From Candidatus Levyibacteriota bacterium (lineage in GTDB: Bacteria > Patescibacteriota > Microgenomatia > Levybacterales > UBA12049): 64,000 nucleotides of DNA. Each line of letters starts with the position of its first letter. Position 1 is the first letter of the stretch. Location of the stretch: contig JACPLG010000005.1 in assembly GCA_016186625.1 (NCBI GenBank), positions 36,954-100,953 on the forward strand, written 5' to 3'. The notes under the pieces are model-generated. The model was not told the DNA's origin and searched no databases. It was given only the letters and a program-made list of their open reading frames with translations. This document shows, piece by piece, positions 16,421-58,662 of the stretch. A program made the position numbers and the translations under genes.

Positions 16421-16852
16421 ATGAAAGCGGGAATAGATTATATAGGAGTGTCAGCGGGAGCATTGATAGTAAACAAAAAAGGTGAAATTCTTCTAACAAA
16501 AAGAAGCATGAAGGCACGAAACGAAAAAGGAAAATGGGAAGCTCCAGGAGGTCAAGTCCATTTTGGTGAGACTAGAGAGTAAGCAATAAAAAGAGAGATT
16601 AAAGAGGAATTAGGAGTCAATATTGAGATTATTCGAACTCTACATACAACTGATGAAATTTTAGAAAAAGATAAACAACATTGGGTTCCAACTACGTTTT
16701 TGGTAAAAATTAAAAGAGGCCAAACACCTAAAGTTTTGGAACCAGAAAAATGTGACCAAATTGGTTGGTTTAATCTCAATAAACTTCCGTCACCAATCTC
16801 GTATGTAACATCACTTGACATTAAAGAATTCAAAAGACAGTTAAGACGATAA
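16421..16852 (+). pseudogene. NUDIX hydrolase gene interrupted by an in-frame TAA inside the Nudix box
   Basis: Single frame reads MKAGIDYIGVSAGALIVNKKGEILLTKRSMKARNEKGKWEAPGGQVHFGETRE*AIKREIKEELGV...RQLRR*. The TAA at 16580-16582 sits where Gln sits in the E. coli MutT box, consistent with CAA->TAA. No ATG exists downstream of the stop. Confidence 0.6.
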
Positions 16853-16890
16853 TTTTTTATTTTAGCCTTGCAAGGCGTCCCCTTGCAAAG

Positions 16891-17343
16891 CTAGGGGGAG
16901 AGTTTGGAGCGGACAATTCCAGAAACCATACCCATGTCGGATTTGCCTTTGAGTTTGGCGCCGAGCACGCCCATGACTTTTCCCATGTCTCCCATTGTTG
17001 AGGCTCCGGTTTCAGATATTGTTTGTTCAACTATATTTCGAACATCTTCTTCTGACATTTGTTCGGGCAGAAAACCTTCTAATATTTTTAGTTCGCTTTG
17101 CTCCTTATCAACTAACTCCTGTCTTCCTGCTTTTTTAAATTCTTCAATAGAATCTTTCCTTTGTTTTGCCTCTTTTTGGATTACTGAAAGAACGTCTTCT
17201 TCGGAAGCAACATATCCTGCGCCGCCTTTTTGAATCTCATAATAATTAACTGCGGAGAGCAAAAGCCGAAGAACAGAAGTTCGCAGCTCGTCACGAGCCA
17301 TCATTGACTGCTTTAATTCTTCTTGGAGTTTTTGCTTATCCAC
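16891..17343 (-). CDS. GatB/YqeY domain-containing protein
   Basis: Full-length similarity to the YqeY fold (MDKQKLQEELKQSMMARDELRTSVLRLLLSAV...LPEQMSEEDV). Confidence 0.8.
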   Translation of the reverse strand: MDKQKLQEELKQSMMARDELRTSVLRLLLSAVNYYEIQKGGAGYVASEEDVLSVIQKEAKQRKDSIEEFKKAGRQELVDKEQSELKILEGFLPEQMSEEDVRNIVEQTISETGASTMGDMGKVMGVLGAKLKGKSDMGMVSGIVRSKLSP

Positions 17344-17422
17344 TCTCTGATTATAGCAAAGTTATTCAAAAAGTTATTTGAAAAACAACAAAGCAAATAG
17401 AAGAACAAGATGTAATAAAATT

Positions 17423-17445
17423 ATCCGTTGTCTAGTCAACGATAC
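17423..17445. repeat. direct repeat TCGTTGTCTAGTCAAC(G/A)ATAC (copy 1; imperfect palindrome CGTTGnCTAGnCAACG)
   Basis: 21 of 22 positions match the copy at 17878-17900. The two copies flank the TrpR/YerC-like gene. Confidence 0.6.
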
Positions 17446-17459
17446 AAAATTACTCTAAA

Positions 17460-17873
17460 TTACTTACGTTTTACGTCTTTTCTATTGAAACCAGTATATT
17501 CATTTCTCTTGAAAACCAATTGTGATCCTCCGGTTTTACTATATCTCTTATTTCTATATTCTTTTTCAACTAGCAATCCGCGTCTTCGAATAAGATTATA
17601 ACAATCTGGGCGTGCATCCATGAGTCTCATAACGTGAACTATTGTATTTTTACCGACCTTGAGTTCTCTACTTATTTCATCTATTCCAACTCCTGAAGAT
17701 ATGTACTCAGCAATTAATATCCTTCGACCTATTTTTAGACGTTCGTCCAAAGTTAACAGTCCGTTGATTATCTCTTCCACCTCATTTCCATCTGTTGCAG
17801 CTAAGAAAGAGTCTCTTAATCTATTAAGCGCTTCGTAAATTGCTTCCTTCTCAAGAAATTTATATCTTCTCAT
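17460..17873 (-). CDS. TrpR-like YerC/YecD family DNA-binding protein
   Basis: LLTLDERLKIGRRILIAEYISSGVGIDEISRELKVGKNTI resembles the YerC/YecD helix-turn-helix. The listed ORF starts at a TTG (17930). An in-frame ATG at 17873 (MRRYKFLEKE) is the more likely start. Confidence 0.55.
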   Translation of the reverse strand: MRRYKFLEKEAIYEALNRLRDSFLAATDGNEVEEIINGLLTLDERLKIGRRILIAEYISSGVGIDEISRELKVGKNTIVHVMRLMDARPDCYNLIRRRGLLVEKEYRNKRYSKTGGSQLVFKRNEYTGFNRKDVKRK

Positions 17874-17877
17874 AAAG

Positions 17878-17900
17878 TATCGTTGTCTAGTCAACAATAC
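17878..17900. promoter_or_regulatory. direct repeat copy 2 / operator-like imperfect palindrome just upstream of the TrpR-like gene start
   Basis: TATCGTTGTCTAGTCAACAATAC sits 5-8 nt upstream of the ATG at 17873 on the coding strand. A TATAGT -10-like hexamer lies just beyond it. Confidence 0.45.
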
Positions 17901-17995
17901 TATAGTTACAAATAATCTATAGGTTTTCAAGTATTTATTTGAGGTGGATAGTAATTAAATTGAGATTGTTAGGATTGAATTAATTGGAGATGAAA

Positions 17996-18784
17996 TTAAC
18001 CGATGAGTCTTCCCAGACCTTTCTGCTTGCTTTTTTTAAAAGCAAAAGTAAACAGCAAAATTGATAATATCAAATAGAATATGTTTAATGCAAAGCTTAC
18101 AAAAATCTTATCTGCAGAAATAGTGTTCAAAAAAATGTGTTGCCTCATGGCTTCAAAAACATAGCTTGAAGGAATTAAAAGAGATATTTTTTGCGCCCAG
18201 TCCGGTAAGATAGATAGCGGATAATAAATTGCAGAAAAAGGGACTATGATGTATGCTCCAGTCCAAGCAAGAGTTTGCGCTTTCAGGCCATACCTAATTA
18301 TTATCGAAGCGACAATAAATCCGATTACCCAACCGGTTATACCAAGATTTATAAAAATAGGGACAAGCCATGCGCCAAACTGGAAGAAAGCGTACTTATA
18401 CAAAATGAACGCAGTTGCTGCGGAGAACACCAGGCTTATAGACATTTTTGTCCCACCGTAAATAATTACCGATGTAATCCACTCTGAAAGTTTAAGAGGT
18501 GAAGAAAATATATTGACTAAATTCCTGTCCCACAATTCGGTCAAAAGATTTACGGTTATTTCATACTGGGATCGCCAAGTGATAACCCAGAAGATAAGCC
18601 CTGTTAAAAGAACGGTTGTCGTTTCTTTTGGATTCTGACTAAGGCTCGCAAAGTACAGACCCGTAATTCCCCAAACCAGAATATCCATAACAGGCCAATA
18701 GAACATGTCGGATAATCTGTCATAACTGCGAATTAAAGTATAAAAATACCTTTTGTTCATCGCATATATTCTTTGCAAGCTCAT
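17996..18784 (-). CDS. ABC-2 type transporter permease
   Basis: 6 TM helices with an ABC-2 topology. Start overlaps the ATPase gene stop. Confidence 0.7.
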   Translation of the reverse strand: MSLQRIYAMNKRYFYTLIRSYDRLSDMFYWPVMDILVWGITGLYFASLSQNPKETTTVLLTGLIFWVITWRSQYEITVNLLTELWDRNLVNIFSSPLKLSEWITSVIIYGGTKMSISLVFSAATAFILYKYAFFQFGAWLVPIFINLGITGWVIGFIVASIIIRYGLKAQTLAWTGAYIIVPFSAIYYPLSILPDWAQKISLLIPSSYVFEAMRQHIFLNTISADKIFVSFALNIFYLILSILLFTFAFKKSKQKGLGRLIG

Positions 18785-19713
18785 AGTCTCCCTCCGGGCC
18801 GGAGGCCTCCTTTCGAAACTTTAAGAAAGAAATCTTCAAGATCAGGTTTGTTAATTGAAATATCTTGAAAGTTAATCTTGTTATTCGTAAGCATTGTTAG
18901 AAAATTTGAAATTTTTTTGCTTTCAACACTTATGTAAAACATACTTCCATCTCTTTTGTATTTAATTTTCTGATCTTCAAAAACTTCTTCCGCCTTTTTA
19001 TAGTCTTTTATTAAAATCTCCATTTGGGAGACGGTTATTTGATTTGCTAAATTTTCAGGCGTGTCTTCTGCAATGATTTTCCCATGATTAAGAATTATCA
19101 CTCGGTCACACATTTCTTCAACTTCCCCCATATTGTGGGATGTAAAAAGCATGCTGACTTTATATTCTTTTTGCTCTTTTTTTAAAAACTCTCTAATCTT
19201 TACAGCAATTTCAGGATCAAGGGATGCAGTCGGCTCATCCAAAAGAATAATTTCGGGATAATTTAAAAAAGCTTTTGTCAAAAGAAGTCTTGCCCGTTCT
19301 CCAGCGGAAAGAGAGTTTACTTCCTTTTCTCTCAAATGGTTGATTTCAAACTCAGAAAGTAATTTATCAATTCTTTTCTTTTTATTTGGAATTTCATAAA
19401 GGTCAGCATAAATTGATAGAACTTGATCAACTGTAAAAAGCCAAGGTAGAGAAATATAGGCAGATGAAAAATTAACTCTTTTGAGAATTTCACTTCTTGC
19501 CTTTTTGAATGTTTTCCCAAAATATGAAATCTGTCCGCTTGTGGGCTCCATTACATCCAAAAGCATATAGATAGTTGTTGTTTTACCTGCGCCATTTGGT
19601 CCAAGAAGACCAAGAATTTCCCCCTCGTTCAGAGAAAAAGAAACACGGTCCACTGCCGTAAAATCACCAAATTGTTTTGTAAGGTTTTTGACCTCTAATA
19701 CTTTATTTAACAT
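18781..19713 (-). CDS. ABC transporter ATP-binding protein
   Basis: Walker A GPNGAGKTT, signature LSAGERARL, Walker B ILLDEPTASLD, H-loop TSHN. Confidence 0.85.
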   Translation of the reverse strand: MLNKVLEVKNLTKQFGDFTAVDRVSFSLNEGEILGLLGPNGAGKTTTIYMLLDVMEPTSGQISYFGKTFKKARSEILKRVNFSSAYISLPWLFTVDQVLSIYADLYEIPNKKKRIDKLLSEFEINHLREKEVNSLSAGERARLLLTKAFLNYPEIILLDEPTASLDPEIAVKIREFLKKEQKEYKVSMLFTSHNMGEVEEMCDRVIILNHGKIIAEDTPENLANQITVSQMEILIKDYKKAEEVFEDQKIKYKRDGSMFYISVESKKISNFLTMLTNNKINFQDISINKPDLEDFFLKVSKGGLRPGGRL

Positions 19714-19729: not shown

Positions 19730-21079
19730 TTACTGAAGCTCTCTTATTCTATTTAATAGATAATTTCTGTTATTTTTAGACAAATCTTCATCAACTTCCT
19801 CAAAAAGTTTTTGCAAAATTTCCCCTACGCGGGGACCTGGCTTTAAGTTTAACACTTTCATAACGTCATTTCCATCAATTTTAAGATCATTTAATGCAAA
19901 TGGTTTTGGCGCCAACTCCCCCGCTACTCTTTCTTTGAATTTTTTAAGCCGCCAGGATTCAGCGGTTTGTGTCCCTCCACCAAGCCGGTCCCCAATTCTA
20001 AGATCCATCATGTCTCCGACATTTTCAACTCCAATTCTTCTAATAAATCTTCTGACTGCTGCATCAGATAAATTTTCATTGACAGAAAACATATGCCACC
20101 TAATTAAAGTTACAATTTTTGTTGTTTCTTTTTTTGAAAATTTAAGCCTCTGACAAATCTCGTAAGCAATATTAGCGCCGGACACCTCATGGTTATAAAA
20201 GGTGACAAGTCCTTCTTTATCTTTTCCTGCAACTTTAGGTTTGCCAACGTCATGAAGAAGAGCTGCAAATCTGACAATCGGATCTTTGGACGGGCAGTGC
20301 TTTAAAGACATTATGTTATGAGTAAAAACATCTGTTGTGTGATGACGGCCGGGCCGGGCCTGCGAAACTCCAACTCCTTCTAAAAGTTCGGGTAATATAA
20401 ATTCCAAAAGCCCGGATTCTTTTAAAAGCATTATCCCTTTGGTAGGGTCCGGGCTTGATAAGATTTTTAAAAGCTCATCTCTAATCCGCTCGGCGGAAAT
20501 ATGTTTAATAAGGGCTGAGTCCTCCTTAATTTCTTTTCCTGTTGCCTCATCAATGTCAAAACCAAGCTGTGCTGCTAACCGAACTCCACGCATAAGACGC
20601 AGGGCATCCTCTTTAAACCTTTCCTTTGGATTTCCAACAGTTCTGATAATATTTTTTTTAATATCAGACTTTCCTTCAAAAGGATCGATAAACTCTACTT
20701 CTCTGCCGGCAACTTTCATAGCAACAGCGTTTAGTGTAAAATCCCGGCGGGATAAATCTTCTTCAATTGTTTTTCCCCAAGATACTTTGTCCGGACGGCG
20801 TCTGTCAGAATAACCATGTTCGGTCCGAAAAGTTGTGATTTCAACTATGCCAAGATTCTTAACGGGAATTCCTACAGTTCCAAACTGATTGTTATAATAT
20901 CCATCTTCAAAAAGTTTGAGAATTTGCTTAGGAGTGGCGCTAGTTGTTAAGTCCCAGTCTTTTACAGGAAGTCCCATGAGAATGTCTCTTACGCATCCTC
21001 CCACAAAATAAACATCAAAACCCGACTTTTTAAGAGTGTCATATATTTTCTTTATTTTCTCTGGGATAGCTTTAGTCAT
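19730..21079 (-). CDS. cca: CCA-adding enzyme (tRNA nucleotidyltransferase with HD domain)
   Basis: FVGGCVRD, DWDLTT and RRD motifs of the polymerase beta-like head, plus C-terminal HD motifs (HDVGK). The likely start is the ATG at 21079 (MTKAIPEK). The listed ORF carries a 29-aa N-terminal extension. Confidence 0.85.
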   Translation of the reverse strand: MTKAIPEKIKKIYDTLKKSGFDVYFVGGCVRDILMGLPVKDWDLTTSATPKQILKLFEDGYYNNQFGTVGIPVKNLGIVEITTFRTEHGYSDRRRPDKVSWGKTIEEDLSRRDFTLNAVAMKVAGREVEFIDPFEGKSDIKKNIIRTVGNPKERFKEDALRLMRGVRLAAQLGFDIDEATGKEIKEDSALIKHISAERIRDELLKILSSPDPTKGIMLLKESGLLEFILPELLEGVGVSQARPGRHHTTDVFTHNIMSLKHCPSKDPIVRFAALLHDVGKPKVAGKDKEGLVTFYNHEVSGANIAYEICQRLKFSKKETTKIVTLIRWHMFSVNENLSDAAVRRFIRRIGVENVGDMMDLRIGDRLGGGTQTAESWRLKKFKERVAGELAPKPFALNDLKIDGNDVMKVLNLKPGPRVGEILQKLFEEVDEDLSKNNRNYLLNRIRELQ

Positions 21080-21084
21080 ATTGT

Positions 21085-21105
21085 TTGAAGATTTGCTCTT
21101 TGTTA
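21085..21105. promoter_or_regulatory. near-palindrome CTTTGTTATA-g-TATAGCAAAG in the divergent cca/recJ promoter region
   Basis: 10-bp inverted repeat (9 of 10 positions) centred between the two divergent starts. Confidence 0.35.
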
Positions 21106-21132
21106 TAGTATAGCAAAGAAAAGAAGATATAA

Positions 21133-22896
21133 ATGAAAAAGTGGGATTTACTAAATAAAAAATCATCTCTTCGACAAACTCAGGACAAGAAAATAAAATC
21201 TAAAAAATTGGATACGGATAAATTGGTTCGAATCCTCCTTAAAAATCGAGGGATTAAAACAAAAAAAGAAGCCCAAGAGTTTTTGAGCCTAAAACTGGAA
21301 AGTTTGGATATTAATAAACTTGGGATAGACAAAAAGGACTTGAATAAAACTTTAAAAAGAATAAAAACCGCAATTGAGAAAAAAGAGCAAATAATTATTT
21401 TTGGCGACTATGATGCGGATGGGATATGTGGCACTGCAATTCTCTGGGAGACTCTGCATAGTCTTGGGGCCAATGTGTTGCCTTATATTCCCAACAGGAT
21501 TGAGGAAGGATACGGTTTATCCCTTGCGGGAATATCAAATTTAAAAAATAAAATATCAAATATAAAATTGGTGATAACAGTGGACAATGGGATTGTGGCA
21601 AATGACGCTGTTGAGTTTGCAAAAAGTTTAGACATCGATGTAATCATCACCGACCACCACGTACCTTCTAAAACTTTGCCCAAAGCTTTTGCAATTGTAC
21701 ACTCAACAAAAGTCTGCGGAGCGGGTGTGGCCTGGTTTCTCTCTCAAGAGATCGTTCGGGGTCCTGTCTCGCTTCACCCCCGCCCGACATCCTCATCCGC
21801 CAGCGGGCGGACTGCGGGTGCTCGTCGGGGGTCCCCCGCGCTCACCACCCCTCACCCCGATCACCTTGATCTCGTAGCGATTGCAACAGTTGCGGATTTA
21901 GTCCCGCTTGTTGGCCCAAATAGAATTCTTGTTAAGTTTGGGCTAGAAGAGCTTAAAAATACGAAAAGAGTTGGTTTGCAAGCGCTATATGATGAGGCAA
22001 GAATTGAAAGAGATAATATAGATACTTATACGATTGGACATATTGTTGCTCCAAGATTAAATGCTATGGGCAGGCTTGAAGAGGCAATGGACAGTCTTAG
22101 GCTTATTTGCACAAGAGACAAAAAAAGGGCAAATGTTTTGGCTAAGAAATTAGGAGAGATAAATAGAGTAAGACAGCGCCTCACAATTGATACTTTTATC
22201 CATGCCAGAGAGAGAGCCAACAAAAATACTCTCAAAAAACTACTTTTTGTTTATCATGAGTCTTATGAGCAAGGTGTGATTGGGTTGGTGGCTGGGAGAC
22301 TAACAGAGGAATATTATCTCCCATCAATAGTACTTTCAAAGGGAGAAAAGTTTAGTAAAGCTTCTGCTCGTTCTGTCTCGGGGCTAAACATAATAGAGTT
22401 TATAAGGGAAGCCGGAGAGTTTCTGGTTGATGCCGGGGGACACCCTATGGCTGCGGGTTTTACTATTGAGACAACAAAAATTCCACTTCTTGAAAAGAAA
22501 TTCGAAGAGCTTTCCAGGAGATTAATTTCAGACGACCATTTGGTCAGAAGACTAAAAATTGATTGCGAATTGCCTGTTTCTTATTTAACACTTGAATTAT
22601 TCGATTCGATATCGAAATTAGAACCATTTGGCATGAAAAACCCAACACCTGTTTTTTTAAGCAAAGGTTTGGAAATCACTGATATGCGATTAGTGGGAAT
22701 AGACGCAAAACATCTTAAATTAAAAATAAAAGATCAAATCTCAAATCTAACCATTGATGGGATTATTTTTAATTATGATAGTTCGATTGGTTTAAAGATC
22801 GGGGATAAAGTAGATGTTGTTTATTCAATAGAGATGAATGAATGGAACGGAAACAAGAAATTAGAACTTAAGATAAAAGATATTAAAAGTTCCTAG
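21133..22896 (+). CDS. recJ: single-stranded-DNA-specific exonuclease RecJ (DHH/DHHA1)
   Basis: IIFGDYDADGICGTAIL, VITDHH, LDLVAIATVADLVPL and a GGHPMAAG DHHA1 motif. Contains an in-frame GC-rich insert (see the repeat at 21755-21866). Confidence 0.85.
   Translation: MKKWDLLNKKSSLRQTQDKKIKSKKLDTDKLVRILLKNRGIKTKKEAQEFLSLKLESLDINKLGIDKKDLNKTLKRIKTAIEKKEQIIIFGDYDADGICGTAILWETLHSLGANVLPYIPNRIEEGYGLSLAGISNLKNKISNIKLVITVDNGIVANDAVEFAKSLDIDVIITDHHVPSKTLPKAFAIVHSTKVCGAGVAWFLSQEIVRGPVSLHPRPTSSSASGRTAGARRGSPALTTPHPDHLDLVAIATVADLVPLVGPNRILVKFGLEELKNTKRVGLQALYDEARIERDNIDTYTIGHIVAPRLNAMGRLEEAMDSLRLICTRDKKRANVLAKKLGEINRVRQRLTIDTFIHARERANKNTLKKLLFVYHESYEQGVIGLVAGRLTEEYYLPSIVLSKGEKFSKASARSVSGLNIIEFIREAGEFLVDAGGHPMAAGFTIETTKIPLLEKKFEELSRRLISDDHLVRRLKIDCELPVSYLTLELFDSISKLEPFGMKNPTPVFLSKGLEITDMRLVGIDAKHLKLKIKDQISNLTIDGIIFNYDSSIGLKIGDKVDVVYSIEMNEWNGNKKLELKIKDIKSS
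21755..21866 (+). repeat. GC-rich (~70 % GC) ~110-bp element inserted in-frame in recJ; homologous to an intergenic element at 28104-28203
   Basis: Begins TTCGGGGTCCTG, identical for 12 nt to the element at 28104, and ends ...CACCCCTCACC, matching CACCCCTCAAC in the other copy. Has an internal CCGCCCG/CGGGCGG inverted repeat. Encodes the low-complexity peptide RGPVSLHPRPTSSSASGRTAGARRGSPALTTPHPDH. Confidence 0.65.
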
Positions 22897-58499: not shown

Positions 58500-58614
58500 G
58501 GCCAAGCGGGCAGGTCTAGTGGTTCAGGACATCGGGTTCCCCGCCAGCAACGCTTTGCGTAGCAATTTTCGGGCTGGTCATCCCGAAAATCACGGGTTCG
58601 ACTCCCGTTGGCGG
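58500..58614 (+). ncRNA. tRNA-like element of unresolved structure (canonical D-arm and T-arm/3' acceptor; ~35-40 extra nt in the anticodon region; no complementary 5' acceptor strand found)
   Basis: GTCTAGTGGTTCAGGAC duplicates the tRNA-Glu D-arm. ACGGG-TTCGACT-CCCGT-TGGCGGT-A is a canonical T-arm plus acceptor 3' strand. TCGGG...CCCGA could form an anticodon stem bracketing a 44-nt insert. Confidence 0.3.
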
Positions 58615-58662
58615 TACGCCTCGTCAAACTCTTCAGGGTGAGCTTCAGATTTAACTCAGCAC

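What the first reader, a model, noticed from the sequence alone, without database searches (positions are those of the whole stretch)
17423..17900. TrpR/YerC-like regulator gene bracketed by 22-bp direct repeats that are themselves imperfect palindromes
TCGTTGTCTAGTCAAC(G/A)ATAC occurs 15 nt past the stop (17423-17445) and 5 nt before the ATG (17878-17900) of the 138-aa TrpR-like gene. 21 of 22 positions are identical. The core CGTTGTCTAGTCAACG is a 14/16 palindrome around CTAG.

There are two readings. (a) The repeats are operators for autoregulation; the upstream copy overlaps the predicted transcription start just downstream of a TATAGT -10. (b) The gene is a small cassette inserted with duplication of a target sequence.
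Basis: seen in the sequence. Interest (0 to 1): 0.5.

Follow-up and report, generated by a model that had tools for sequence, protein, structure and literature searches.

The report
Repressor gene bracketed by its operators
A small Trp-repressor-like regulator gene in a Levybacteria (CPR) genome has near-identical CTAG-centred palindromes at both ends, and this bracket recurs in most relatives, so the repeats are most likely the regulator's own binding sites and not an insertion scar.

Summary
The repeat CGTTGTCTAGTCAAC(G/A)ATAC occurs at 17426-17445 and 17881-17900. These are the only two such sites in the 64-kb window. They bracket a 137-aa gene (17460-17873, minus strand) of the Pfam Trp_repressor family in a Candidatus Levybacteria genome.

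Among 66 non-redundant orthologous loci, 61/65 have a palindrome about 16 nt before the ATG and 56/64 have one about 23 nt after the stop. Three relatives at only 32-36% identity show the same bracket.

The motif drifts between lineages, but the two copies within a genome drift together. The protein residues that track the motif centre best lie in the helix-turn-helix. The downstream copy is direct in 26 loci and inverted in 17. It is present whatever gene follows.

These results exclude a target-site duplication or cassette. They support the operator reading. The upstream site overlaps the -10/transcription start, which fits autorepression. The downstream site is a conserved second operator. 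Its role is unresolved: a loop partner or a 3' roadblock.

The gene is not a HisR/YerC or E. coli-type TrpR orthologue. I rate it a new variant of a known kind, of moderate interest.

The parts
17878..17899 (-). Upstream operator: 22-nt pseudo-palindrome, TATTGTTGACT|AGACAACGATA in gene orientation. It extends to a 24-bp palindrome at 17877-17900. The centre lies 15 nt before the ATG.
   Evidence: Family matrix score 23.2. An equivalent site is present in 61/65 orthologous loci.
17423..17444 (-). Downstream operator: 22-nt pseudo-palindrome, TATCGTTGACT|AGACAACGGAT in gene orientation. The centre lies 26 nt past the stop codon. It is followed by AATTTTATT, so it also matches a weak terminator pattern.
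   Evidence: Matrix score 27.7. Terminator-like pattern. An equivalent site is present in 56/64 orthologous loci. The identical 22-mer occurs in the 74%-identical relative L091.
17460..17873 (-). Gene for a 137-aa TrpR-family helix-turn-helix protein with a conserved basic C-terminal tail (about residues 110-137).
   Evidence: Pfam PF01371, 33.2 bits against a cut-off of 27. Below the NCBIfam YerC/YecD and TrpR cut-offs. AlphaFold model with six helices. Best structural matches are TrpR/HisR structures. 100% identical to a Candidatus Levybacteria protein.
17899..17904 (-). Candidate -10 hexamer TATAGT abutting the upstream operator. There is no good -35: the nearest candidate, TTGAAA, lies 20 nt upstream.
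   Evidence: Read from the sequence. The scan tool did not call a promoter here. In relatives the -10 is either the left arm of the operator or lies just upstream of it.
17350..17358 (-). TGcTATAAT extended -10 element 6 nt before the GTG start of the downstream yqeY gene (16891-17343). This is a separate, probably leaderless promoter, about 80 nt downstream of the second operator.
   Evidence: The same TGnTATAAT-N5-7-start arrangement occurs in many orthologous loci.

Best explanation
Both repeats are binding sites (operators) for the TrpR-family protein encoded between them.

The protein probably binds as a dimer, or as tandem dimers, to the motif TAyCGTnGWCTAGWCnACGrTA. The upstream site covers the -10/transcription-start region and the short 5' leader, so the bound protein shuts off its own promoter (negative autoregulation).

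The second site, kept 10-15 nt after the stop codon, is an auxiliary operator belonging to the same gene unit. It most likely does one of two things. It may cooperate with the upstream site through a roughly 450-bp loop that closes over the whole gene. Or it may act as a protein roadblock that defines the 3' end of the transcript.

What is shown: conservation, position, co-variation of the two sites, and co-variation with the recognition helix. What is inferred: binding itself, repression, and the role of the downstream site.
For: 1. The sites are unique to this gene. They are the only two matches in 64 kb. In 229 kb of related loci, nearly all extra matches also lie beside the gene.

2. The bracket is conserved. 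An upstream site occurs in 61/65 loci, a downstream site in 56/64, and both in 53/63 non-redundant orthologous loci at 50-76% identity. It also occurs in relatives at 32-36% identity whose palindromes have a quite different sequence.

3. The two copies co-evolve. The best 16-mer match between the two flanks is at least 14/16 in 53/63 loci, against 79/378 for cross-locus pairs. The Hamming distance between a locus's own two sites is 3.5/22 against 7.5/22 for cross-locus pairs (p = 2e-10).

4. The protein tracks the site. Residue 76, the second residue of the recognition helix, is Asn in 27/42 loci with a CTAG centre and in 0/22 with another centre. The three protein columns with the highest mutual information with the site centre (76, 80, 68) all lie in the helix-turn-helix.

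5. The position fits repression. In 6 loci a TTGAC[A/T/G] -35 lies 17 nt (16 nt in one) before the left arm TAYCGT, so the arm is the -10. In about 12 loci a -10 ends about 7 nt before the site, so the site begins at the start point.

6. The motif resembles that of TrpR. It has an ACTAG core, and five loci carry tandem sites offset by exactly 8 bp (CTAG-N4-CTAG). The E. coli trp operator has the same spacing; PMC9413887 describes the GNACT half-site and the 8-bp spacer.

7. The fold is TrpR/HisR-like.

8. The downstream site is independent of the neighbouring gene. It is present in 13/14 loci with a convergent neighbour and in 34/37 with a co-directional one.
Against: No binding or expression data exist; everything is comparative.

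The association between the helix-turn-helix and the motif is not corrected for phylogeny.

The loop version is not supported by spacing. Centre-to-centre distances (436-461 in 40 compact loci) show no helical phasing (R = 0.19 at every period tested). There is also no compensation between the upstream and downstream offsets (permutation P = 0.55). This is weak evidence, because phase dependence is expected to fade at about 450 bp (my knowledge).

The roadblock version is awkward, because the same protein already blocks initiation.

In the window the promoter is poorly defined: TATAGT has no proper -35.

At least eight loci lack the downstream site and four the upstream one. In L005 the pair brackets the neighbouring gene instead.
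Confidence: 0.72

Rival explanations
1. RNA-level elements. The palindromes act as hairpins in the mRNA: a 5' stem that masks the start region and a 3' stem that terminates or stabilises the transcript. In this view they are not protein-binding DNA sites.
For: Both copies fold as RNA hairpins: -10.4 kcal/mol (z = -3.3) upstream and -9.8 kcal/mol (z = -1.5) downstream. The window's downstream copy matches a terminator pattern with a following T-rich tract. The downstream site hugs the stop codon. Upstream sites show more G-U-type than A-C-type mismatches (62 vs 26).
Against: The most conserved part, CTAG and its neighbours, would be the hairpin loop, which structure alone would not conserve. 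Only 10/57 downstream sites are followed by a T4+ run. Downstream sites show no G-U bias (46 vs 36, p = 0.32). The upstream bias comes largely from the centre pair and pair +/-9; the latter coincides with the -10-like TATCGT arm and a GGA just before the ATG. In loci where the left arm is the -10, half of the palindrome is not transcribed. A hairpin gives no reason for the 5' and 3' copies to share a sequence or to track the helix-turn-helix.
Confidence: 0.1
2. The sites are bound by some other factor, such as a global regulator, a methylation-linked protein that recognises CTAG, or a recombinase, and merely happen to flank this gene.
For: No direct evidence links the protein to the sites. CTAG-containing palindromes are recognised by many proteins (my knowledge).
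Against: The sites occur only beside this gene in 64 kb and in the related flanks. They follow the gene across different neighbourhoods, including distant relatives with different motifs. The motif centre co-varies best with this protein's own recognition helix. No methyltransferase, restriction or recombinase gene was identified among the neighbours examined.
Confidence: 0.08
3. Insertion scar or mobile cassette. The gene was inserted with duplication of a target sequence, or it carries terminal repeats.
For: In the window the two copies are in direct orientation and bracket a single small gene. In L068 the downstream copy is part of a roughly 70-nt duplication of the gene's 5' end. In L005 identical 28-mers bracket a different gene.
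Against: Orientation is direct in 26 loci, inverted in 17 and undecidable in 11. Neither a target duplication (always direct) nor terminal inverted repeats (always inverted) can give that mix. Synteny with CCA-adding enzyme, YqeY and SecDF is conserved. There are no mobility genes. The repeats persist and co-evolve over divergence down to 32% protein identity.
Confidence: 0.02
4. The downstream copy is simply the operator of the next gene's promoter, so the two sites belong to two separate regulated genes.
For: In many loci a co-directional gene (YqeY, an ABC ATPase, MetK-like, Frr-like) follows within 65-230 nt. In L068 the site is duplicated together with a start codon in front of a Nudix-like ORF. 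In three loci without the downstream site (L019, L039, L077), yqeY follows within about 20 nt, as in an operon.
Against: The site is equally present when the neighbour is convergent (13/14). It keeps a fixed distance from the regulator's stop codon (interquartile range 20-26 nt) but a variable distance (roughly 65-115 nt) from the next start codon. The next gene's own TGnTATAAT promoter lies far downstream of it, so the site does not overlap that promoter. No promoter consensus is aligned with downstream sites.
Confidence: 0.08

Closest known systems
E. coli TrpR and its operators (trpR autoregulation; tandem dimers on the trp, aroH and trpR operators)
   Same: Same Pfam family and fold. The operator contains ACTAG/CTAG. 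Tandem sites in relatives are offset by exactly 8 bp, as are the CTAG boxes of the trp operator (PMC9413887). The regulator's own gene carries an operator at its promoter.
   Different: Fails the TrpR equivalog model (16.4 vs 67.25 bits). The site is a 22-24-bp palindrome centred on a single CTAG with conserved CGT/ACG at +/-6-8, not TGTACTNGTNNACNAGTACA. The protein has a conserved basic tail of about 40 residues. No trp genes are nearby. A second operator after the stop codon is not a feature of trpR (my knowledge).
HisR (B. subtilis YerC; YerC/YecD family, TIGR02531), the histidine repressor of Firmicutes
   Same: The nearest solved structures are HisR-type proteins: 3KOR, 3G1C, 3FRW. It is a small TrpR-family protein with a palindromic operator of about 20 bp, and about half of hisR genes are preceded by their own site (PMC9413887).
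   Different: Below the family cut-off (23.2 vs 42.2 bits). The motif is not cacTTTA-N6-TAAAgtg. No his genes were seen in the genes examined around it. It is about 35 residues longer. HisR is not reported to have sites on both sides of its gene.
Dual-operator looping systems (lac O1/O2 at 401 bp; gal OE/OI; lambda OL-OR flanking cI-rexAB)
   Same: Two like operators several hundred bp apart, one at the promoter and one downstream. In lambda they bracket the repressor gene itself, and the loop sharpens autoregulation (my knowledge).
   Different: No evidence here of oligomerisation beyond the dimer. No helical phasing of the spacing. The downstream site lies exactly at the end of a single small gene.
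Transcriptional roadblock repressors (for example PurR at purB, CodY/CcpA roadblocks in B. subtilis; my knowledge)
   Same: A repressor site placed downstream of the promoter that could stop elongating polymerase.
   Different: Known roadblock sites usually lie in leaders or inside genes to repress them. Here the site is after the stop codon of the regulator's own gene.

Membership tests
TrpR family (Pfam PF01371 Trp_repressor) | Sequence match above the curated gathering score | tested here: met
   33.2 bits against a cut-off of 27, residues 16-94. Most homologues carry a precomputed PF01371 hit.
TrpR family (Pfam PF01371 Trp_repressor) | All-helical TrpR fold with a helix-turn-helix (helices D and E) | tested here: met
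   AlphaFold model with pLDDT 79 and six helices. The top Foldseek PDB hits are all TrpR/HisR structures, with target-normalised TM 0.73-0.82 and probability 1.00, although the E-values are only about 1e-2.
E. coli-type TrpR (NCBIfam TIGR01321 equivalog) | Score above the equivalog cut-off | tested here: not met
   16.4 bits against 67.25.
E. coli-type TrpR (NCBIfam TIGR01321 equivalog) | Operator of the type TGTAcTnGTnnACnAgTACA (two GNACT half-sites with an 8-bp spacer) | tested here: inconclusive
   Single sites here are centred on one CTAG and so are not of this form. Five relatives carry tandem sites offset by 8 bp that recreate ACTAGT-N2-ACTAGT. Motif taken from PMC9413887.
HisR / YerC-YecD (NCBIfam TIGR02531) | Score above the family cut-off | tested here: not met
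   23.2 bits against 42.2.
HisR / YerC-YecD (NCBIfam TIGR02531) | Operator cacTTTA-N6-TAAAgtg and linkage to histidine biosynthesis or uptake genes | tested here: not met
   The motif is TAyCGTnGWCTAGWCnACGrTA. The neighbours are CCA-adding enzyme, an ABC-2 transporter, YqeY and SecDF. HisR features taken from PMC9413887.
Autoregulated repressor with an operator at its own promoter | Binding site overlaps the -35/-10/start of the regulator's own promoter | tested here: met
   By position only. The left arm is the -10 in 6 loci with a clear -35. The site begins at the predicted start point in about 12 loci. In the window TATAGT abuts the site. Binding itself was not tested.
Autoregulated repressor with an operator at its own promoter | The protein binds the site and represses transcription | not testable with these tools
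   Needs EMSA or footprinting and a reporter assay. The indirect support is co-variation between the helix-turn-helix and the motif.
Looping dual-operator repression | Helical phasing or a constrained distance between the operators | tested here: inconclusive
   No phasing (R = 0.19) and no compensation (P = 0.55) in 40 compact loci. Phase dependence is expected to be weak at about 450 bp (my knowledge).
Looping dual-operator repression | The repressor forms tetramers or higher oligomers that bridge two sites | not testable with these tools
   Only a monomer model could be made. The conserved basic tail is a candidate for this role but is untested.
Target-site duplication / mobile cassette | Flanking repeats always in direct orientation, a variable genomic location, and mobility genes | tested here: not met
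   17 of 54 loci have the repeats inverted. Synteny is conserved. No mobility genes were identified in the neighbourhood.
Intrinsic (Rho-independent) terminator | G+C-rich hairpin followed at once by a U-run | tested here: inconclusive
   The window's downstream copy matches a loose pattern. Across the family only 10/57 downstream sites have a T4+ run within 15 nt, and the mean T content there is 39% against a 32% background.

The most novel reading that the evidence does not exclude
The bracket is an obligatory architecture of this CPR-specific TrpR subfamily. The regulator may define both ends of its own transcription unit: the start through the 5' operator and the end through the 3' operator. 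It could do this by closing a gene-sized loop or by acting as its own roadblock terminator. The unit would then be self-contained and insulated, and its only genomic targets would be its own flanks. The same bracket would occasionally be re-used for a neighbouring gene, as in L005 and L068.
Probability: 0.3. Interest if true: 0.65.

Novelty: new variant of a known kind. Interest (0 to 1): 0.5.

Why it matters
Almost nothing is known about transcriptional regulation in Candidate Phyla Radiation bacteria. They have very few regulators and cannot be grown alone.

This finding gives a concrete, testable regulator-operator pair for one of them. It comes with a natural series of dozens of co-evolved protein-site variants, which could be used to read out the recognition code of TrpR-family helix-turn-helix proteins.

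The conserved second operator directly after the stop codon is unusual. If it closes a loop or acts as a self-made terminator, it would be a compact way to insulate a gene in a genome with few classical terminators.

If it proves to be only an auxiliary operator, the locus is an ordinary autoregulated repressor.

Tried and rejected
1. Distance constraint or helical phasing between the two sites. There was none: R = 0.19 at periods 9.5-12, the covariance of the offsets was about 0, and the permutation P was 0.55. I had first thought distances clustered at 450-453. That impression did not survive proper site calling.

2. Calling sites by palindrome score alone failed, because AT-rich chance palindromes competed. 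I replaced it with an iterated symmetric matrix.

3. A promoter at the downstream site, on either strand. No aligned -35/-10 consensus was found. The weak hits come from the coding sequence at the gene's 3' end.

4. An intrinsic terminator as the general role of the downstream site. Few T-runs follow it.

5. RNA-hairpin selection, tested by G-U versus A-C mismatches. There is no bias at downstream sites. The bias at upstream sites comes largely from the centre pair and pair +/-9, where -10 and GGA constraints overlap.

6. Are downstream sites better palindromes than upstream ones? No (paired Wilcoxon p = 0.90).

7. Known RNA families: no credible hit in 16500-18500.

8. Literature on TrpR-like regulators in CPR: nothing found. 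The only relevant paper concerns HisR/YerC in Firmicutes.

9. A 22-nt 77% repeat upstream of both promoters (17360-17381 and 17921-17942). I judged it a chance match in AT-rich DNA and did not pursue it.

10. A genome-wide regulon scan was not possible.

Full report
**1. What is in the window.**
The minus strand of 16.9-21.2 kb carries five genes in this order:
- a CCA-adding enzyme (19730-21166)
- an ABC ATPase (18781-19713)
- an ABC-2 permease (17996-18784)
- a 137-aa gene (17460-17873)
- yqeY (16891-17343)

SecD and SecF lie on the other strand. The 137-aa protein matches Pfam Trp_repressor (33.2 bits, cut-off 27). It falls below the NCBIfam cut-offs for YerC/YecD (23.2 vs 42.2) and TrpR (16.4 vs 67.25). 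It is 100% identical to a hypothetical protein of a Candidatus Levybacteria metagenome-assembled genome. The start codon at 17873 is fixed by the alignment: all orthologues begin M[RK]RY.

**2. The observation.**
CGTTGTCTAGTCAAC(G/A)ATAC occurs at 17426-17445 and 17881-17900, with 19/20 identical and a spacing of 455. The 16-nt core is a 14/16 palindrome around CTAG. At up to 3 mismatches it is found nowhere else in the 64 kb, against 0.10 matches expected. In gene orientation the upstream copy reads aacTATAGTATTGTTGACTAGACAACGATACtttATG. A TATAGT hexamer therefore abuts it, and the palindrome ends 3 nt before the ATG.

**3. Relatives.**
I collected 5 loci from genomes, 80 from metagenomes and a few more by exact-protein look-up. 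After removing proteins at least 95% identical, 66 loci remained. Simply printing the flanks showed the pattern: almost every orthologue has a palindrome just before the ATG and a similar one just after the stop.

An iterated symmetric 22-nt matrix gave the consensus TAyCGTnGWCTAGWCnACGrTA. The 99th percentile of the background score was 2.9. With a threshold of 10 it called sites as follows:
- an upstream site in 61/65 loci, with the centre a median 16 nt before the ATG (interquartile range 14-19)
- a downstream site in 56/64 loci, with the centre a median 23 nt after the stop (interquartile range 20-26)
- both sites in 53/63 loci

The nearest relatives (74% and 70% identity) have the same two sites and no others in 4.7-7.4 kb. 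Three distant members (32-36% identity) are also bracketed, by palindromes of quite different sequence. L087 has TTCGCATATCCGCATGCGAA, matched 16/16 in inverted orientation. L090 has CTACCGTGCACTGTTGCACGGTAG. The subfamily itself is small: 71 clusters at 50% identity out of 1.84 billion representatives.

**4. The two copies co-evolve, and the protein tracks them.**
The motif differs between lineages. The centre is CTAG, CTGG, CTGT, ACAG or CTAT, and position +/-5 is free. Within a genome, however, the two copies agree:
- The best 16-mer match between the two flanks is at least 14/16 in 53/63 loci, against 79/378 for cross-locus pairs.
- The mean Hamming distance is 3.5/22 for a locus's own pair and 7.5/22 for cross-locus pairs. 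The own partner is among the closest 10% in 35/54 loci (Wilcoxon p = 2e-10).
- At the variable positions, same-locus agreement (0.76-1.0) far exceeds what the column frequencies predict (0.30-0.65).

Across the whole protein, the column with the highest mutual information with the site's central tetramer is residue 76. This is the Asn of VGKNT, the second residue of the recognition helix. Residues 80 and 68, also in the helix-turn-helix, come next. Asn76 occurs in 27/42 loci with a CTAG centre and in 0/22 with other centres (Fisher p = 1e-7). This test is not corrected for shared ancestry, so it is supportive and not proof.

**5. Why this is not an insertion scar.**
- The downstream copy is direct relative to the upstream one in 26 loci, inverted in 17 and undecidable in 11. 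A target duplication would always be direct, and terminal inverted repeats always inverted.
- The neighbourhood is stable housekeeping: CCA-adding enzyme upstream, with YqeY and convergent SecF/SecD downstream. An ABC transporter pair is optionally inserted after the regulator gene. In the window it lies before the gene.
- No recombinase or transposase was identified among the neighbours examined.

**6. Where the sites sit relative to promoters.**
Six loci have a clear TTGAC[A/T/G] -35 lying 17 nt (16 nt in one) before the left arm TAYCGT, so that arm is the -10 hexamer. In about a dozen others a good -10 ends about 7 nt before the site, so the site begins at the predicted start point. Both are classical positions for a repressor. 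In the window only a -10 (TATAGT) is recognisable, and the scan tool did not call a promoter there.

Downstream sites show no aligned promoter elements on either strand. The following genes have their own promoters. A TGnTATAAT lies 5-7 nt before the start codon of yqeY and of several other downstream genes, which implies leaderless transcripts. In the window it is at 17350-17358, about 80 nt beyond the second site.

**7. What the downstream site is not.**
- It is not tied to the next gene. It is present in 13/14 loci where the neighbour is convergent and in 34/37 where it is co-directional. The neighbour varies: YqeY, an ABC ATPase, MetK-like, Frr-like or SecF.
- It is not generally an intrinsic terminator. 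Only 10/57 sites are followed by a T4+ run. The window's copy does match a loose terminator pattern.
- It shows no sign of RNA-hairpin selection. G-U-type and A-C-type mismatches number 46 and 36 (p = 0.32). The conserved CTAG would fall in the hairpin loop.
- It is not a better palindrome than the upstream site.

**8. Loop or roadblock?**
Centre-to-centre distances in 40 compact loci span 436-461 bp. They show no helical periodicity and no compensation between the two offsets. This gives no support for a phase-constrained loop. It does not exclude a loop of about 450 bp, where torsional constraints are weak (my knowledge). A roadblock or 3'-end function would explain why the site hugs the stop codon, but it is redundant with repression of initiation. 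I could not separate these two by computation.

**9. Resemblance to TrpR binding.**
The predicted structure is a six-helix TrpR fold with a disordered but highly conserved basic tail, roughly VEKEY..KKY...GGS.LVFKRKEYTGFKRKDVKR. The best PDB matches are HisR-type proteins and E. coli TrpR, including both DNA complexes.

Five loci carry overlapping sites offset by exactly 8 bp, for example GACTAGTCGACTAGTC in L019. This repeats the ACTAGT-N2-ACTAGT arrangement of the E. coli trp operator, where half-sites are GNACT with an 8-bp spacer (PMC9413887). B. subtilis YerC is HisR, a histidine repressor with the motif TTTA-N6-TAAA (same paper). Neither that motif nor his-gene linkage applies here. The protein is therefore a separate, CPR-restricted branch of the TrpR family. 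Its ligand, if it has one, is unknown.

**10. Exceptions that inform.**
- L019/L022, L039 and L077 lack the downstream site, and yqeY follows within about 20 nt.
- L005 lacks the upstream site, but two identical 28-mers bracket the next gene, a 179-aa protein with no Pfam match. The bracket can therefore be applied to a target gene other than the regulator.
- In L068 the downstream site is part of a roughly 70-nt duplication that includes the first nine codons (MSRRYKFLS), fused to a Nudix-like ORF. This shows one way such sites can arise and be recruited.

**11. Verdict.**
Reading (a) is supported and extended. Reading (b) is refuted.

The most likely mechanism is negative autoregulation by a TrpR-family dimer, or tandem dimers, at a promoter-overlapping operator. 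A conserved second operator at the 3' end of the gene acts as a loop partner or roadblock.

The locus is a new variant of a known kind. The protein subfamily, its motif and the conserved bracketing architecture were not found described in the papers searched. The principle, an autoregulated helix-turn-helix repressor with auxiliary operators, is familiar.

Noticed in passing
window 17341-17358 (minus strand), and the downstream genes of L004, L008, L010, L019, L027, L039, L043, L052, L065, L077: An extended -10 element, TGnTATAAT, lies only 5-7 nt before the start codon of yqeY and of some other genes. This implies leaderless mRNAs as a common design in these Levybacteria.
   Followed up: partly
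window 17996-19713, compared with L001-L003, L016, L030, L092: The ABC ATPase / ABC-2 permease pair lies upstream of the regulator gene in the window. In many relatives it lies downstream of it, sometimes together with a C39 peptidase, and in others it is absent. The regulator with its two sites stays together as a unit.
   Followed up: partly
L005 3431-3458 and 4029-4056: Two identical 28-mers (GTGCCGTAGTCTATACTACGGCACTAAA) bracket the gene after the regulator gene, a 179-aa ORF with no Pfam match. The regulator gene in this locus has no upstream site.
   Followed up: partly
L068 1696-1957: The downstream site belongs to a roughly 70-nt duplication of the regulator's 5' end. The duplication includes the first nine codons (MSRRYKFLS), fused in frame to a Nudix-like ORF (REVREETGLEV...).
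   Followed up: partly
L012 (down), L019 (up), L035 (up and down), L041 (down), L054 (up): Overlapping double sites offset by exactly 8 bp (CTAG-N4-CTAG), the spacing of the CTAG boxes in the E. coli trp operator.
   Followed up: partly
L043, intergenic region after the regulator gene; L074, after the downstream site: Short tandem repeat arrays occur there...catcagtcattcacatcagtcatacacatcagtc... in L043, and aaaccaaaaac repeats in L074.
   Followed up: no
window 58506-58616 (+): Rfam reports a 111-nt tRNA match (32.3 bits) right after tRNA-Glu. ARAGORN did not call it. It may be an intron-containing or otherwise atypical tRNA.
   Followed up: no
L003, L004, L005 (record titles): These records are titled 'uncultured Gammaproteobacteria bacterium'. 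L003 and L004 nevertheless share the Levybacteria gene order (CCA-adding enzyme, regulator, YqeY, SecDF), and the L003 protein is also held under a Patescibacteria name. The taxonomic labels therefore look wrong. L005 shares only the regulator gene.
   Followed up: no
window 17460-17545 (protein residues about 110-137): The C-terminal tail is strongly conserved, with Y106, G115, G116, K122, Y126, G128, R131 and K132 nearly invariant. It is nevertheless predicted to be disordered (pLDDT about 45). It may be a DNA-contacting arm or an oligomerisation segment.
   Followed up: no
L006 (117 nt upstream of the gene) and L081 (250 nt upstream): These are extra high-scoring sites further upstream. L006 thus has three sites. 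L081 has no site adjacent to the gene but one at 250 nt, inside a 560-nt intergenic region.
   Followed up: no
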